In this document: piece after piece, positions 1 to 5,977 of the stretch
Numbering within the stretch: position 1 is the first letter of the stretch
How the letters are laid out: every line of letters starts with the position of its first letter
Assembly: GCA_905178155.1 (NCBI GenBank)
Contig: CAJINV010000008.1
Coordinates: 2,659,471 to 2,665,447 of the forward strand
Direction: 5' to 3'
From: Amoebophrya sp. A120
Lineage: Eukaryota > Protista > Dinoflagellata
DNA length: 5,977 nucleotides
Notes under the pieces: generated by a model
The model's input: the letters and a program-made list of their open reading frames with translations, nothing else
What the model was told of the DNA's origin: nothing
The model's database searches: none
Program-made: the position numbers and the translations under genes

Positions 1-71
1 GGCACTGAAACAGCATGACAAACATCTGCCGCAATCTTCCATACCCAGATCGATATTTTTTGCAATGCGTA
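1..71. mobile_element. Right end of a related introner, intronic, truncated by the window start
   Basis: GCATGACAAAC...CTTCCATACCCAGATCGATATTTTTTGCAATGCGTA resembles the right end of 5378-5642 (GCATGACAAAC...CTTCCAGACCCAGACATTTTTACATTTGATA). Its reverse complement TACGCATTGCAAAAA resembles the family terminus TATGGATTGCAAAAA. On the minus strand TGG|GTACGC offers a GT donor at 72-71. Confidence 0.75.
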
Positions 72-491
72 CCCACTGCTGCACCACGATTTGCTGGCCG
101 ATATCAAACACGACCGACAAGAGCATGGAGATCACCAGAAGCAGGTTCTGCCAATTCAGGTAAGACACGGGCGTTTTTACGGCTGCACGATCCTCGTTGC
201 TGCTGGTGTTTCTGGAGGCGTCCTCCTCCAGTACGTCAATGTCTCTAGCCGCTGTATTTTCATGTTGAGTCCCCGACGTTTGTTGAAGATCATCATGGTC
301 CTCAACTACATTTTGGTCGTCTAGTTGGTCGCGACGCGAATCATCTTCGGCGCCGTTGGTCTTATTTCTAGATGAACCACCAAACGCCAAATCCAGGTAG
401 AATTTCGAGAGTCGCCAGGACAGCTGGGCCGCGCCCCGTTCCGACTGTAGCGTGGACAGGCTGCTCGAACGGAGCCGGTGTTGGAACTCCT
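72..491 (-). CDS. Downstream exon of the same ABCC transporter (start of TMD2)
   Basis: Stop-free frame that joins ...INEKFV after removal of 215 nt: KEFQHRLRSSSLSTLQSERGAAQLSWRLSKFYLDLAFGG...PVSYLNWQNLLLVISMLLSVVFDIGQQIVVQQW. The first part resembles the ABCC pre-TMD2 'E...G.v.w..y..Y....GG' motif; the last is a hydrophobic helix ending in W. Missing from the ORF track. Confidence 0.82.
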
Positions 492-496
492 TCACG

Positions 497-706
497 TATC
501 CAAGAAAAAAACTGTGTAAGTGTAACTCTGTAGCGAGAATAGCATCACAAATTCGCTTTGCATTGCAGGGAAAACCTGTCATGCGCAACTAGCACGTGGA
601 AACACGTGTGAAAGTAGCCTATGACGCAGACTCAGCATGACAAGTGTAACAGTTTTGCACTTTCTGCATCACAGACTTACACTCGAAAAATTTTTTTTCT
701 TGCATA
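497..706. mobile_element. MITE-like introner (210 bp) of a second family forming an intron; imperfect ~35-bp TIRs, 5-bp direct repeat TCACG
   Basis: 497-511 TATCCAAGAAAAAAA versus reverse complement of 692-706 TATGCAAGAAAAAAA (14/15). 519-531 AGTGTAACTCTGT versus reverse complement of 671-683 AGTGTAAGTCTGT (12/13). TCACG at 492-496 and 707-711. Contains the TGA (669-671) that ends the ORF-track ORF. Confidence 0.88.
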
Positions 707-3700
707 TCACGAACTTCTCGTTGATTGGCTCCGTCAAATGCCCGTCCAGCAACTGCTTCGAGGTCTCAAGAACTTCACACAGGTAAACCGGGTGCTGGTA
801 TTCCGGATTCATCACGAGCAAAGAACTGGGGTAATATGAGGAGGATGAATGTGGCCCATACTGCGGCTCATCGCCAGCGGGAGGTGCAGGCGGAGAGATG
901 ATATTAACATGCGGCGCGATGGAATCACTGGTTTCTACTGCTTCTTCTCGAGTGCTGGACAGTCGCATTTCTGCAGCAGACAGATCAGGTTCTGGCTGTT
1001 CTTCCTGTGCAGAGGTAACATGATTTCCTGGTCCCCTTGTCGTGTCTCTTGTCGCCGTCCCTTGTTTTCCTGTCTCGTTCATCAACATTCCGCCGTGCTT
1101 CGGACTGGTTTGCGTTTCCGCGTTGGCGAGCAGCACTGGACGCAAGCGCAGATCCGTCCGCGCGGAGCGTGGGATGAAATAAGGGGCCTTATAGCCAGCG
1201 CCAGCAGGAACGCCGAGGGTCGCGGCGATTCGGGTGCGCAAAGTCGCATCTTGCAGATCCTCCCTGCCGCTCCCACTGTCGACAAGCAGAGCATCCAGCG
1301 CCAGATCCCGTCGGAACGCGTCCACCGTACGCGGCCGGCTCACTGTCGACGTGGCTTCGCTCTGTGCGCCCGACACACTTTGGTCGGTGTTGTTCATCGC
1401 ATACGAAATTCGATTTCTCCCATCGTTCGTAGTTCCCTCGTGGTCCAACAGAGGCAGGTCCAGCAGCAGAGGCCGCGGGTCGGCCGCCCCCAGCAGAGGC
1501 GTTGCCAGCTGCGACGTTGAGGACGGAAAATCCAGAGCGGTTGAAGATCGCGGGGACAGCGGACTGGCACTGAAAAGGTCCGCGGCCCCGTGCCATGACG
1601 GGCGCGGCAGCAATGCTTGCAGAAAGTCAGAAGCAGTAGTCTTTGTTGCTGTAGTCTCCTGATTTAATATTGTTTTGCCGTCCTGCGAAGAAGTCCGCGA
1701 CTTCCGCAATCGCACCTTCCCGTCGGCGCGCCGGTTCGGGTTCACCAGGGTCTCCTGCTGCGCCGGCTGCACTTTTTGCTCCCCTTTCGCAGAGCCGGGA
1801 ACAGACGCTTGCTGCTGTAGTACAGCTCCAAAATCAGCGGCGGCAGTGTTCGTGCCTTTATTCTTATTTTCCGTCGATAGCAGTATTGAATCACGTTGTT
1901 CAGAAGTTGTACCTTCCCGCCGGTTCTTCTTTGCCTGATCTGGCTCCAACTTCTCCCCAGCTGCACCCTCGCCCTGCCCGTCCGCTTCCGGTTCGCTCAT
2001 TTCGAGCACGCTCAGCCGAAAGTGATCCCGCGAGACTGGCGGCGAGGGTGTCGATAGCGACTTGTTGCTCAGCGAAAGCTTCGGATTCGACGTGGAATTC
2101 TGTAAGGAGAGAGAGAGTTCAGGAACAAACAGTTTACTCGTCGCAGAATTATCGCTTTTCCTCACAGGGGTCTTGGCACCCTGTAGCAACGGCGACCTTC
2201 GAAAAGCCTCAATTTTCGCCTCGCTTTCCTTCTGTATGTCGTCGAACAGCTTCAAATCCCTTGGGGTCAGGGAAGCGAGACGAGGTGGAAAAGAAAACAA
2301 CGCGGCTTCTTGACCTCCAATCGTGAGCGCAGGAAAATCAGTAACAGCATCGTTATCCTGCGATAAACTTCTGCCAAAAAAAGGAGGTAGTTGATCCGGC
2401 GCCTCGTCGGTACTGTCATCCTGCGCTTTTGCAGGAGAGCCTGACTCGTCGTCTGCGGTGACGTGCGACAAAGTGAGTACCTCCACCATCGCACTGGCGT
2501 CGAGATCCGCGGAAGACGCGCCAGAGGCAAAGCGTCGCCGCATGAGCGCTCCCGGGCCCAAGTGCGCCGTCGATGCTCCGGGGTACACAAAGTATGCTTT
2601 AGCCTTCGAAGACCGCGACTTTGCTTTTGCGGACGATGATAATTGCTGGTGATGTGCAAAAACCTGCCGTGGCGTTGTAGGCATCGGTTCTTGTTGTTCG
2701 GCATCCGGGTTTAACATATTTTTGCGGTCCTGTTCATCCACAGAATCACTGGGATTGTTTTCTGCATCTCCGTCTAGTGCAATTTTGCCCTCGAGGGCCG
2801 TCGTTGGCATGATCCGTTCCTCGGGTTCGTGCCTGTAAACGTGGTCAAGCGAGGAGTCGGGGAGTGTCGCCTGCGATTCTTCTGCGCGTAACAGTCCTGG
2901 TGATTCACTTGGACCTAGAATAGCCGGAGCTGCCACTGCGCCCTCCTGTGCTCCTAGTATCTGTATCACCTCCGACGAAAGGGAAAGATCCAACGGCTCT
3001 TCGGGAAGTGTCGGAAGCAAATCTACTAAGTAATGCAGCTCCTCGTGTTTAGTTGTGGGCGTGGCTGCAGCAGCTGATGTCTGGTGTGTTGTCTCCGTGG
3101 TTTTGATATTGGTCCCAGCAGACGGCAGCTCACCATGCTTCGCGCCGCTTCGCTGCAAAAACTCTTCGACGTCCGCGAGGGACTGCATCTTTTTGACGCG
3201 ATAGCACGACGATGTCGAACTAGAAGGGGTTGATGTGCAATGACTGGAAGAACTACCTTCCCCCTCCACCAATTCCAGCACCGTGACCCTCCCGCTATTC
3301 CACAGCTCAGCGGCTTCGTCGGAAAAGAAAAGCTGAGCAGCTTTTGATTTTCCCTGTTCGCTTTTCTTCTCGTTCTTTGTGCCATATCTTTTCATCGACT
3401 CCAGCAGGAAGTGCAGTTGGTGAGTGGCCAGGACGACCGCGCACTTCTTCTCGACCACGCACGGCTCCCATACGCACTCGCTCCAGATTTTCTCGCCCGT
3501 CGTCGCGTCCACCGCCGACAACACATCGTCCAGGAAAAGTAACTCCGGCTCCGCGTACAGCGCGCGCGCGAGGGAGACACGCGTCTTCTGTCCCCCGGAC
3601 AGTTGCACGCCCTTGGCACCCACCAGGGTGCCGTCGTAGTCGGGCGCGAAGCGGTTCAGGTCGGGCCGGAGCTGGCACTTCTCGATCACGGTGTCGTACA

Positions 3701-5377
3701 GTGCATTCTTGTTTATTTCGCGGGTCGTGGATGAGAGGACAGAAGCATCGTCTACTTTATTAGCTTCCCGTTGTTCCTTCTCTCGCAAGCCGCCAGCCTC
3801 ATGATAAGCATCTTCCGTCGTGACGCTTTTTTTCTTGAAAAGAATGTTATCCTTGATGCTCCCACCCATAAGAAACGGCTTCTGTGCGACAAAGGCCGTT
3901 TTCACGTCGCGCGGAATCAAAATGCGCGTCGTTTTGCTTGAAACTTTCCTGGCAGGTAGCGGGCTGTTGCTAGAAAGCAAGAACTCACGACGCACGGGTG
4001 CGCCTGTGGAGGTCTCTCGGTGGTCCTTCTGGCTGTTCGGCCCCGGAGAAGTTGTGCAGGTCGTGGTGGAGGTCATCAACGACAACAGATCGATCTCCGT
4101 TGTACCAGCAGCCGCGAACGTACTAGAATTTGCCTCTTCGTGAACGAACTTCTTTCCGTCGTCCAGGATCAAGTCGGAGTAACCCGAGAAACTCCCGCTC
4201 CCGAGCGCCTGCAGCAGTGTCGACTTTCCGGAGCCGACCTTCCCGACGACTAAAATCAGCTGCCCAGGGACGATTTCCACTTCGCTCTTCGTAGCAGTTT
4301 TCTTGGATGAAAGCGAAAGGCTTGTTACTGCGCTAGTACCACGATGATTGCAATTCCATTCCTGCTTTGTCGTCATTACTTCGCCGAACATGGCGAGCGG
4401 GACCTCGAGACGAAATCCAGGCGACGACTTTACATCTTTTCCCGACTCGCTTAAAGTCACGCTTGTGTCGGTTTGTTGTTGCTCTCGTCCACCTTCTTCT
4501 GTCGCTAACTTCGACTCGTCTCCTCCCGTGGTGCCAGTACTGTCCGACCCAGGTATAGCTGCACTCTTAGGACTGTAACCGAGGTGGAAGCTGCAACCTG
4601 CGTCGAGCGGTGGTTGATGTCCTCTGATCGCTATGTTCTTGCCACTGTTGCTGCAGCTGGCGGTGGTGGTAGTAGTAGTGCTTCCAGTCAGATTTTCAAG
4701 ATGTTGCACCACTCGAGGACTTCTTTCCGACATAGCATCTTCTTGCGCGTCCGCTTCCTCCGCAACAAGAACGATCGACAGCAGGCTGCTCCTACTAGTA
4801 GTAGCCTCTACCGTCCTTTTATCATAATCCAGCACATTCGTGAACGCGGTAAAGGAGTTTTTCGACAGAACCCGAGGCTTGGAATTCTCGTCGTCGACGT
4901 GCACGACGACACTTTCGTTGTCGCCAAAAGTTCGTTTGATCTCTGGGTGGTGGTCTACGTCTGCTCCTGCACGAGGAAGCTCTACTGAGTCAGCATCATT
5001 ATACACTGCGTGGTCATAGTCTTCCAAAAACTGCATCGCCCGGTGGAAGGTCGGCGCGGTTTTCGCACAGACCCGCACGAGGTGCCTTGTCCGTCCGACC
5101 ACCAGGTGCTTCAGCTTCTCGCTGATCAGGAAGACGGCGAACGCGTTCTCCGGGAGCAGAACCGCGGTCGGGTCGGTTAACACAAAGACCGCAATCATCA
5201 CCGGAAACACGCACTCCTCGATCAGTTGGGTGAAGGCATCCGCAGCCGCCTGCGCCACCTGCGACCGCCACAGGCTCTGCAGCTCCAGCGCCCGGGCCTC
5301 CTGTAGGAGGTCAAACCACCGCTGCTCCCAGTTCTGCAGCTTGATCAGCTTCACGTTCGTCACGAAGTTCGTCAGCC
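707..5377 (-). CDS. Large internal exon of an ABCC/MRP-subfamily ABC transporter (end of TMD1, NBD1, very long linker); gene partial in this window
   Basis: Core of the 669..5501 ORF. TMD1 motif [33 protein letters not shown] resembles ABCC 'IK.IK..aWE..f...i...R..El'. Walker [10 protein letters not shown] 4218-4244, Q-loop [20 protein letters not shown], signature [23 protein letters not shown] (LSGGQ 3588-3602), Walker B/D-loop [12 protein letters not shown] (LLFLDD 3525-3542), H-loop [10 protein letters not shown] (~3417-3428). Both ends are set by TIR elements and are ambiguous by about 5 nt because of the direct repeats. Confidence 0.93.
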
Positions 5378-5642
5378 TATGGATTGCAAAAATGTCTGGG
5401 TCTGGAAAGTTGGAACTTGTGATGCTGCATTTGGATTCTAAAAAAATCTGTATTGCATGAGCAGCAAAGAGAGTCCAAGTTTTGCTACACGGTAAGCGCA
5501 TTTGTCATGCGGTATAGGCATCAGGAAGCCCTCACGACAAAATCTGTGATGCTAGGGCATGCATCACAGACATCAGGAGTCATGCAAAATGTGCATGACA
5601 AACCTTGGACCCTTCCAGACCCAGACATTTTTACATTTGATA
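5378..5642. mobile_element. MITE-like introner (265 bp) forming an intron; 30-bp TIRs, 5-bp direct repeat CAGCC
   Basis: Left end 5378-5407 TATGGATTGCAAAAATGTCTGGGTCTGGAA versus reverse complement of 5613-5642 TATCAAATGTAAAAATGTCTGGGTCTGGAA (26/30, inner 20 bp perfect). CAGCC at 5373-5377 and 5643-5647. Read-through on the minus strand hits TAA (ctg tat caa atg taa). Confidence 0.92.
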
Positions 5643-5647
5643 CAGCC

Positions 5648-5703
5648 TCCGCACGTGCAAGTCCCGGGCCTCGGACAGCTCCTTTTGGTACACCTGCACG
5701 AAT
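5648..5703 (-). CDS. Small upstream exon of the same ABCC transporter (TMD1 cytoplasmic loop)
   Basis: Reads F-V-Q-V-Y-Q-K-E-L-S-E-A-R-D-L-H-V-R with GC3-rich codons. After removal of 270 nt it joins in frame to [14 protein letters not shown], matching the ABCC 'Q..l....D.R....E....IK.IK' segment. This frame is missing from the ORF track. Confidence 0.85.
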
Positions 5704-5977
5704 TATGGATTGCAAAAATGTCTGGGTCTGAAAGAGTGGAACTTGTAATGCTGTCTGCGGATTCTAAAAATATCTGTGTTGCGTGAGCAGTAAGAGCCTG
5801 CTAGTTTGTGCTACGCGGGGAGGGCGTTTGTCATGCGGAGTAGGCATCAGGAAGCCCTCTAAAAATATTGATAGTCATATCTACAATTTCATCGCAAGAC
5901 TCACGAATAATTCAATTTCGTGAATAATTCAAATTGAATAATTCAATTTCGTGAATAATTCAAATTGAATAATTCAA
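5704..5977. mobile_element. Second copy of the 5378-5642 introner family, intronic, truncated by the window end; homology stops at 5859
   Basis: 5704-5859 aligns ungapped to 5378-5533 at about 125/156 identity (hand count). The first 27 bp are identical, and homology begins exactly at the TIR start TAT. Confidence 0.85.
5905..5977. repeat. Perfect AT-rich tandem repeat, 31-bp unit GAATAATTCAATTTCGTGAATAATTCAAATT (2 units plus a partial one, runs off the window)
   Basis: GAATAATTCAA at 5905, 5922, 5936, 5953 and 5967, with alternating spacers TTTCGT and ATT. Confidence 0.95.

What the first reader, a model, noticed from the sequence alone, without database searches (positions are those of the whole stretch)
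1..5977. Every visible intron of this ABCC gene is a TIR/TSD-bounded transposon-like element (introner system)
Seen: four interruptions, all with TA(T/C) termini. The two complete ones have TIRs and different 5-bp direct repeats taken from exon sequence (CAGCC, TCACG). Removing element plus one repeat (270 and 215 nt) gives one continuous ABCC protein. Established: introners are non-autonomous DNA transposons that create introns, and IR/DR-bounded non-canonical introns are known in Amoebophrya (Syndiniales). Inference: these are transposon insertions into coding sequence that are tolerated because they are removed from the RNA. At least two TIR families share the same terminus and TSD length, so one transposase type may mobilise both. 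Whether these families are already catalogued cannot be judged from here.
Basis: partly seen in the sequence, partly recalled or inferred. Interest (0 to 1): 0.85.

Follow-up and report, generated by a model that had tools for sequence, protein, structure and literature searches.

The report
Amoebophrya transposons that serve as introns
All four interruptions of this transporter gene are copies of small hairpin-ended mobile elements that are missing from the likely transcript assemblies, a real but already described trait of the marine parasite Amoebophrya whose removal mechanism is still unknown.

Summary
Observation confirmed; system already in print. The minus-strand ABCC gene carries four elements with TA(T/C)-N7-AAA ends. 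Three RNA-like assemblies (one sample) skip element B plus one 5-bp repeat. One also shows the skip of A and leaves the window exactly at the edges of C and D. DNA-like runs keep the elements, and family A is about 10^4-fold deeper than single-copy DNA. In a public assembly holding the same family, 110 of 133 copies have an exact 5-bp duplication and none a longer one. At least six families share the end and an internal motif. Copies lie in both orientations; 45 of 52 admit no canonical boundary; two interrupt RPB1. Best named protein relatives are Amoebophrya. The end matches the published motif of strain A120 (Farhat 2021), and 5-bp/TA-TA is listed for one A120 family (Gozashti 2025). No transposase was seen and no raw read shows the cut. 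Whether this is A120 itself is open. The scan noted similar introns in other genomes, none matching this element by sequence.

The parts
1..71 (.). Element D: right end of a diverged family-A copy, cut by the window start; ends in the TAC variant of the terminus
   Evidence: Similar to family-A right ends. RNA-like contigs of X3, X4, X5 begin matching at 72; a DNA-like contig runs across 71/72.
72..496 (-). Coding exon of the ABCC gene (includes one TCACG copy at 492-496)
   Evidence: Stop-free frame; covered without mismatch to 491 by RNA-like contigs.
497..706 (.). Element B, 210 nt, TIR-bounded, 5-bp duplication TCACG at 492-496 and 707-711; no canonical boundary at any of 6 cut positions
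   Evidence: skip 491 to 707 (215 nt) in X3, X4, X5; RNA fold z -3.68; clusters with 8 copies of 201-216 nt.
707..5377 (-). Long coding exon: end of first ABC membrane domain, first nucleotide-binding domain, long linker
   Evidence: Pfam ABC_tran E 7.5e-14 and weak ABC_membrane E 0.0038; ABCC/MRP relatives.
5378..5642 (.). Element A, 265 nt, TIR of about 30 nt, 5-bp duplication CAGCC at 5373-5377 and 5643-5647; one of 7 cut positions reads GC-AG
   Evidence: skip 5372 to 5643 (270 nt) in X3; RNA fold z -9.23; 133 complete relatives.
5643..5703 (-). 61-nt coding exon between elements C and A
   Evidence: Stop-free; the X3 contig has exactly 61 letters on this side of the joint; aligns with ABCC relatives.
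5704..5861 (.). Element C: left part of a family-A copy in the same orientation as A
   Evidence: 85-86% identical to A over two blocks; alignment.
5862..5977 (.). Likely nested insertion inside C, with 31-nt near-palindromic tandem units at 5905-5977
   Evidence: Other copies go from 5861 straight to the A right half (joint 5861 to 5539); tandem array.

Best explanation
These are miniature non-coding DNA transposons of Amoebophrya that sit inside coding sequence with a 5-bp target duplication and are likely cut out of the RNA together with one copy of that duplication, so the protein is unchanged. Shown: the anatomy, the high repetition, the strict 5-bp duplication, absence from RNA-like assemblies, and a restored frame. 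Inferred, step 1: an integrase-like DDE transposase acting in trans makes a 5-nt staggered cut and recognises the shared TAT-N7-AAA end and the internal GCAT(G/C)AC boxes, so one enzyme type would serve all families (about 0.6). Inferred, step 2: the removal signal is carried by the element, not by the host exon. Both ends read the same in either orientation and pair into a stem; a modified major spliceosome likely reads this end motif and cuts at fixed offsets that remove element plus five bases (about 0.55 for the spliceosome against another nuclease-ligase route). The confidence figure is for 'transposon-derived introns removed from RNA'.
For: RNA-like contigs skip B in 3 of 3 such runs laid (X3, X4, X5); the A joint is listed for X3; there are no mismatches over 5,086 exon bases in X3. 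These runs hold 0.86-0.87 of the window's words and exons make up 0.861 of it. Summed depth on A is about 10,600 and 10,800 times single-copy depth in X1 and X2 but about 100 times in X4 and X5 (rough, not a copy number). DNA-like contigs run unbroken from exon into element at all three ends tested for A and B (496/497, 706/707, 5377/5378) and at 71/72. Exact 5-bp duplication in 110 of 133 copies, one mismatch in 13, 6-9 bp in 0; shuffled pairing mean 0.15; 103 distinct target words among 110. Frames called separately on each flank require five bases kept in 52 of 81 same-strand cases against 16 and 13 (129 examined). Two copies interrupt RPB1; removing element plus 5 at both gives 81.7% identity over 366 residues to an Amoebophrya RPB1, the best of 9 combinations. 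Orientation 18:15 and 7:7, 2:3 in homology-anchored genes. 45 of 52 admit no GT-AG, GC-AG, GA-AG or AT-AC reading, and 0 admit GT-AG. The internal motif occurs 0.95-4.0 times per copy in six families against at most 0.06 in shuffles; all 12 window hits are in elements, none in exons.
Against: No raw read shows a junction: the three raw RNA runs do not cover the exons. X3-X5 are contigs from one sample and their RNA label is a guess. The joint table was cut (239 rows hidden), so the A joint in X4 and X5, and its absence from X1 and X2, were not read directly. No transposase was found: 0 of 76 long frames had a transposase or integrase family, and the 5 longer TIR-TSD spans had no frame above 151 codons; only about 255 kb was sampled. 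Farhat 2021 found no transposase in A120 and argued against general transposase mobilisation. Element A does admit a GC-AG reading. Strand calls rest on a model trained on one gene and are noisy (48 of 129 disagree between flanks). The exact cut position inside the duplication cannot be read from these data.
Confidence: 0.9

Rival explanations
1. Same elements, but removal is spliceosome-independent: an endonuclease and ligase recognise the terminal RNA stem, as proposed for euglenid nonconventional introns. This is a rival for the removal step only.
For: Strong stems join the two ends (z -9.23 and -3.68; mean pairing probability 0.81-0.99 at positions 11-27 in 51 copies). There is no boundary dinucleotide rule. 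U1 was not detected in A25 or A120.
Against: At variable positions 4, 5 and 7 an end matches its own partner no better than the end of another copy (0.59/0.65/0.36 against 0.63/0.66/0.38), so sequence rather than pairing is conserved there; positions 10 and 14 show a small own-partner excess. Each element ends in a U-tract like a spliceosomal 3' end. Ordinary GT-AG introns coexist in the same RPB1 gene, and A120 keeps nearly all spliceosomal proteins.
Confidence: 0.3
2. The skip is a reverse-transcription artefact at a hairpin flanked by direct repeats; real transcripts keep the elements and the gene is dead.
For: A hairpin with short direct repeats is the known recipe for template switching (own knowledge). 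All RNA evidence here is assembled contigs, likely from cDNA.
Against: The frame is intact over 1,715 codons, although retention would add stops in every frame of A and B. Two copies sit in conserved parts of RPB1 with no decay of the protein. The skipped form is the main long contig in 3 of 3 RNA-like runs.
Confidence: 0.04
3. X3-X5 are DNA from a strain or cell stage with empty sites (an uninserted allele, or programmed DNA excision).
For: The tool marks their RNA status as a guess; no silent control stretch was laid.
Against: Exons are identical over 5,086 bases while family copies are only 55-95% identical to each other, so a sister strain could not lack them. The family as a whole is about 100-fold depleted in X4 and X5, and these assemblies are about 41-44 million letters against about 105. 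DNA-like contigs show no branch at the insertion sites.
Confidence: 0.04

Closest known systems
Introner elements (IEs) among the non-canonical introns of Amoebophrya sp. A120 (Farhat et al. 2021, PMC7789003)
   Same: Inverted repeat starting TAT, seven looser bases, then at least three A; short direct repeats at the borders; hairpin; mean non-canonical intron length 240 nt; coexistence with canonical introns.
   Different: The paper gives direct repeats of 3-5 nt in varying positions and argues against transposase mobilisation; here the duplication is strictly 5 bp and directly abuts the TAT end. Sequence identity with its families could not be tested: the text of the supplement has no such sequences and its figures were not seen.
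A120 introner families of Gozashti et al. 2025 (PMC12130899, dataset file sd07), especially family 38
   Same: Family 38 is listed as TIR DNA, '5-bp TSD, TA/TA Termini'. Listed lengths 252-261, 148-149, 208-214, 317-321, 273-279 and 105-107 nt mirror the six families here (medians 262, 150, 211, 321, 279, 110).
   Different: Family 38 is about 810 bp with frames resembling Copia/Gypsy proteins; the elements here are 110-330 nt and non-coding. Most A120 families are left with superfamily unknown and mixed automatic TSD lengths. I saw 50 of the 58 A120 rows; they hold no sequences.
Ginger2/TDD DNA transposons (Bao et al. 2010, PMC2836005)
   Same: TIR elements with an integrase-like transposase; TDD-4 and TDD-5 make 5-bp duplications.
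   Different: Ginger ends follow TGTNR and most make 4-bp duplications at preferred targets; here the ends are TAT and targets are nearly unselected.
Euglenid nonconventional introns and Fritillaria borealis non-canonical introns (as reviewed in PMC11282704)
   Same: MITE-like origin, terminal pairing, target-like repeats at the junctions, non-canonical borders.
   Different: Other end motifs (CAG/CTG in euglenids; mostly AG-AC or AG-AT borders in Fritillaria) and unrelated lineages.

Membership tests
Amoebophrya A120-type introner element | Inverted repeat beginning TAT + 7 nt + at least 3 A | tested here: met
   Five of six visible window ends begin TAT, D has TAC; TAT at 125 and 126 of 133 left and right ends of family A; motif as printed in the paper.
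Amoebophrya A120-type introner element | Direct repeat of 3-5 nt at the exon-intron borders | tested here: met
   CAGCC and TCACG; 110 of 133 exact 5 bp.
Amoebophrya A120-type introner element | Repeated in the genome | tested here: met
Amoebophrya A120-type introner element | Junction supported by RNA | tested here: met
   Contigs of three RNA-like runs of one sample; no raw reads; RNA status inferred from exon-only content and repeat depletion.
Amoebophrya A120-type introner element | Host is Amoebophrya | tested here: met
   Best named relatives of the window protein are A120 (44%) and AT5.2 (55%) proteins; RPB1 of the assembly with the same families is 73% identical to AT5.2 against at most 49% for the rest. 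No tree was built.
Amoebophrya A120-type introner element | Sequence identity to a catalogued A120 family, or host is strain A120 | tested here: inconclusive
   Lengths match the A120 table but no family sequences were available; no near-identical protein among candidates of 855-5000 residues.
MITE (non-autonomous TIR DNA transposon) | TIRs, fixed-length target duplication, short, non-coding, high copy | tested here: met
   A B-family copy also lies inside an ordinary GT intron.
MITE (non-autonomous TIR DNA transposon) | Cognate autonomous element with the same ends and a transposase | tested here: inconclusive
   None in about 255 kb of loci; whole genome not available.
Ginger DNA transposon | TGTNR termini | tested here: not met
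   Ends are TAT against TGTNR.
Canonical U2 intron | GT (or GC) donor and AG acceptor | tested here: not met
   0 of 52 admit GT-AG, 1 GC-AG; window B none, window A admits GC-AG.
Canonical U2 intron | Lariat and branch point | not testable with these tools
   Needs lariat reads.

The most novel reading that the evidence does not exclude
One short symmetric end motif shared by all families is both the transposase site and the whole splice signal. It is read as sequence, in either orientation and whatever the target bases, so any exon position becomes a traceless intron. That would be a splicing code with no GT/AG and no U1, run by a rewired spliceosome or by a separate machine, with an unclassified integrase-like transposase making TAT ends and 5-bp duplications.
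Probability: 0.3. Interest if true: 0.85.

Novelty: already known. Interest (0 to 1): 0.42.

Why it matters
How Amoebophrya removes tens of thousands of introns without GT-AG is an open question. The finding does not reveal a new system, but it sharpens the known one into testable rules: a strict 5-bp duplication, one end motif and one internal motif across families, either orientation, no target preference, and tolerance even in RPB1. These rules point to recognition of the element's own ends and would let annotators place such introns exactly. I did not find the orientation result in print: one search listed 4 papers, none with the phrase 'both orientations', and the 'orientation' passages of the two main papers do not address it. 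The unseen supplementary figures may.

Tried and rejected
No whole genome is held, and the loci's records cannot be searched by handle, so there is no genome-wide count and no real transposase hunt. No listed holder is on record as RNA. Raw RNA runs X8-X10 laid only 10, 3 and 199 reads, all on elements and none on exons, so they are uninformative for splicing. The viral collection has 0 matches to the TIR pattern. Rfam has 0 matches in the window. Four motif searches in the Farhat supplement gave 0 hits; 'A120' was not found in file 3 of the Gozashti supplement. The search of protein representatives, meant to test for a near-identical protein, never ran because the queue was full. The stop-free-run test was weaker than the frame-model test: removal of five was best in 48 of 111, four in 17, six in 18, 28 ties. 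A 1,031-nt span in L067 is two neighbouring copies with the same target word, not a long element. A fixed GC-AG reading was rejected as a general rule: it fits A only. Membership in Ginger was rejected on termini. Earlier findings by sequence: none.
Full report
Observation. The window holds part of a minus-strand gene for an ABCC-type transporter: Pfam ABC_tran E 7.5e-14 with a weak ABC_membrane match and MRP/ABCC relatives. Four AT-richer stretches interrupt it. A (5378-5642) and B (497-706) are complete, have imperfect terminal inverted repeats and are flanked by CAGCC and TCACG. C (from 5704) and D (to 71) are cut by the window edges. A finder for TA(T/C)-N7-AA ends with an exact 5-bp flanking repeat returns only A and B; 200 shuffles gave a mean of 0.015. 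Removing 270 and 215 nt yields one stop-free frame of 1,715 codons, and five of six relatives tested align across junction A. Retained elements would put stops in every frame.

RNA and DNA evidence. Ten runs were listed and eight laid. An 11,799-nt contig of X3 matches 72-491 and 707-5372 with no mismatch, joins 491 to 707 and 5372 to 5643, and has exactly 61 letters beyond the second joint. It thus enters at the edge of D and leaves at the edge of C. X4 and X5 show the same B join. X1 and X2 instead have contigs running unbroken from exon into element, and summed depth on A of about 10^4 times the exon level (the tool warns this is no copy number). X3-X5 are labelled RNA only by guess and come from one sample. 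I take them as RNA because they hold the exon share of the window's words (0.86-0.87 against 0.861), are about 100-fold poorer in the repeat family, and match the exons perfectly although family copies are only 55-95% alike. The three raw RNA runs did not cover the exons, so no read shows the cut.

Family survey. Whether the window comes from that assembly was not determined. Of 133 complete non-redundant family-A copies, anchored on an inner core so that ends and flanks were free, 110 have an exact 5-bp duplication, 13 have one mismatch, 10 have more, and none has 6-9 bp. Shuffled pairing gives 0.15. The 110 targets are 103 different words, with a composition close to the flanks. The generic finder, which has the 5-bp repeat built in, found 163 elements against 0-3 in five shuffles. 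They fall into six families of median 262, 150, 211, 321, 279 and 110 nt plus singletons; A and C join the first, B the third. All begin TAT and carry an A-run from position 11, and all hold the motif GCAT(G/C)AC far above shuffle levels.

Behaviour as introns elsewhere. Frames called separately on the two flanks agree on strand in 81 of 129 cases; 52 of these require five bases kept, against 16 and 13 for the other phases. In L075 two family-A copies interrupt RPB1, one in the bridge-helix region (the region name is from my own knowledge). Removal of element plus five at both gives the best of nine alignments to an Amoebophrya RPB1, and an ordinary GT-AG intron follows. Copies lie both ways relative to the gene: 18:15 by model, 7:7 by long frames, 2:3 where homology fixes the strand. 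Of 52 oriented copies, 45 admit no canonical border at any cut position and none admits GT-AG. The ends pair in RNA, but at variable positions 4, 5 and 7 an end is no closer to its own partner than to another copy's end.

Host. The best named relatives of the window protein are from Amoebophrya A120 (44%) and AT5.2 (55%) over the nucleotide-binding domain; an unnamed protein ranks first at 47%. The RPB1 piece is 73% identical to AT5.2 and at most 49% to others. No near-identical protein was found at 855-5000 residues, and no A120 RPB1 appeared among the 120 listed hits at 491-2000 residues, so the strain stays open.

Mechanism. Shown: TIRs, fixed 5-bp duplication, repetition, absence from RNA-like assemblies, frame restoration. 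Inferred: mobilisation in trans by an integrase-like transposase. The 5-bp duplication and the Copia/Gypsy-like frames of A120 family 38, which has the same signature, point there, but no transposase was seen in about 255 kb. Inferred: removal is directed by the element's own symmetric ends, because neither orientation nor target sequence matters. A modified spliceosome is my first choice (U-tract at each 3' end, canonical introns alongside, spliceosomal proteins present in A120); a stem-directed nuclease-ligase is the main rival.

Comparison with print. Farhat et al. 2021 (PMC7789003; seen: abstract, sections 10, 11, 12, 16, 32, passages, supplement text part 4 and a term search; figures S19-S25 not seen) describe 29,850 repeated introns in A120 whose inverted repeats start TAT, seven looser bases, then at least three A, with 3-5-nt direct repeats. 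Gozashti et al. 2025 (PMC12130899; seen: passages, and 50 of 58 A120 rows of one dataset file) class most as TIR DNA elements and list family 38 with a 5-bp duplication and TA/TA ends. Passages only were seen of PMC12005148 (another Amoebophrya has mainly GT-AG introns), PMC11282704, PMC2836005 and PMC11453091. Other papers were seen as search listings only.

Verdict. It is a known trait of A120-type Amoebophrya. What is added here are sharper rules and a concrete test (which duplicated base survives in mRNA) for a mechanism that is still open. Interest 0.42; novelty: already known.

Noticed in passing
window 5862-5977: Element C is interrupted by another repeat with 31-nt near-palindromic tandem units; other copies of the family run straight on at this point, and this stretch is itself repeated in the DNA-like runs.
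   Followed up: partly
L075 1491-2462: A family-A copy in RPB1 has grown to 972 nt through a nested insert of about 710 nt bounded by a 19-nt duplication with an A-rich end, which looks like a retroposed insert; the outer ends and 5-bp duplication are intact.
   Followed up: partly
L076 about 2075-2312: A B-family copy lies inside an ordinary GT intron of RPB1, so these elements also insert as plain passengers.
   Followed up: no
L001-L151, first 10 bases of element ends: A few discrete end types recur on left and right ends and across families in mixed combinations, which suggests end exchange between copies.
   Followed up: partly
window 557-606: 199 raw RNA reads of run X10 carry a B-like piece at 90-95% identity with other flanks and no exon cover: a related element transcribed in another sample or strain.
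   Followed up: no
window 1-216 and 2456-2652: DNA-like runs show double depth at 1-216 and a second variant with 11 differences at 2456-2652, suggesting a partial paralogue or internal duplication.
   Followed up: no
window 708-3400: The linker after the first nucleotide-binding domain is about 1,000 residues of low-complexity sequence with no Pfam match above cut-off, yet stays open and is present in the RNA-like contigs.
   Followed up: no
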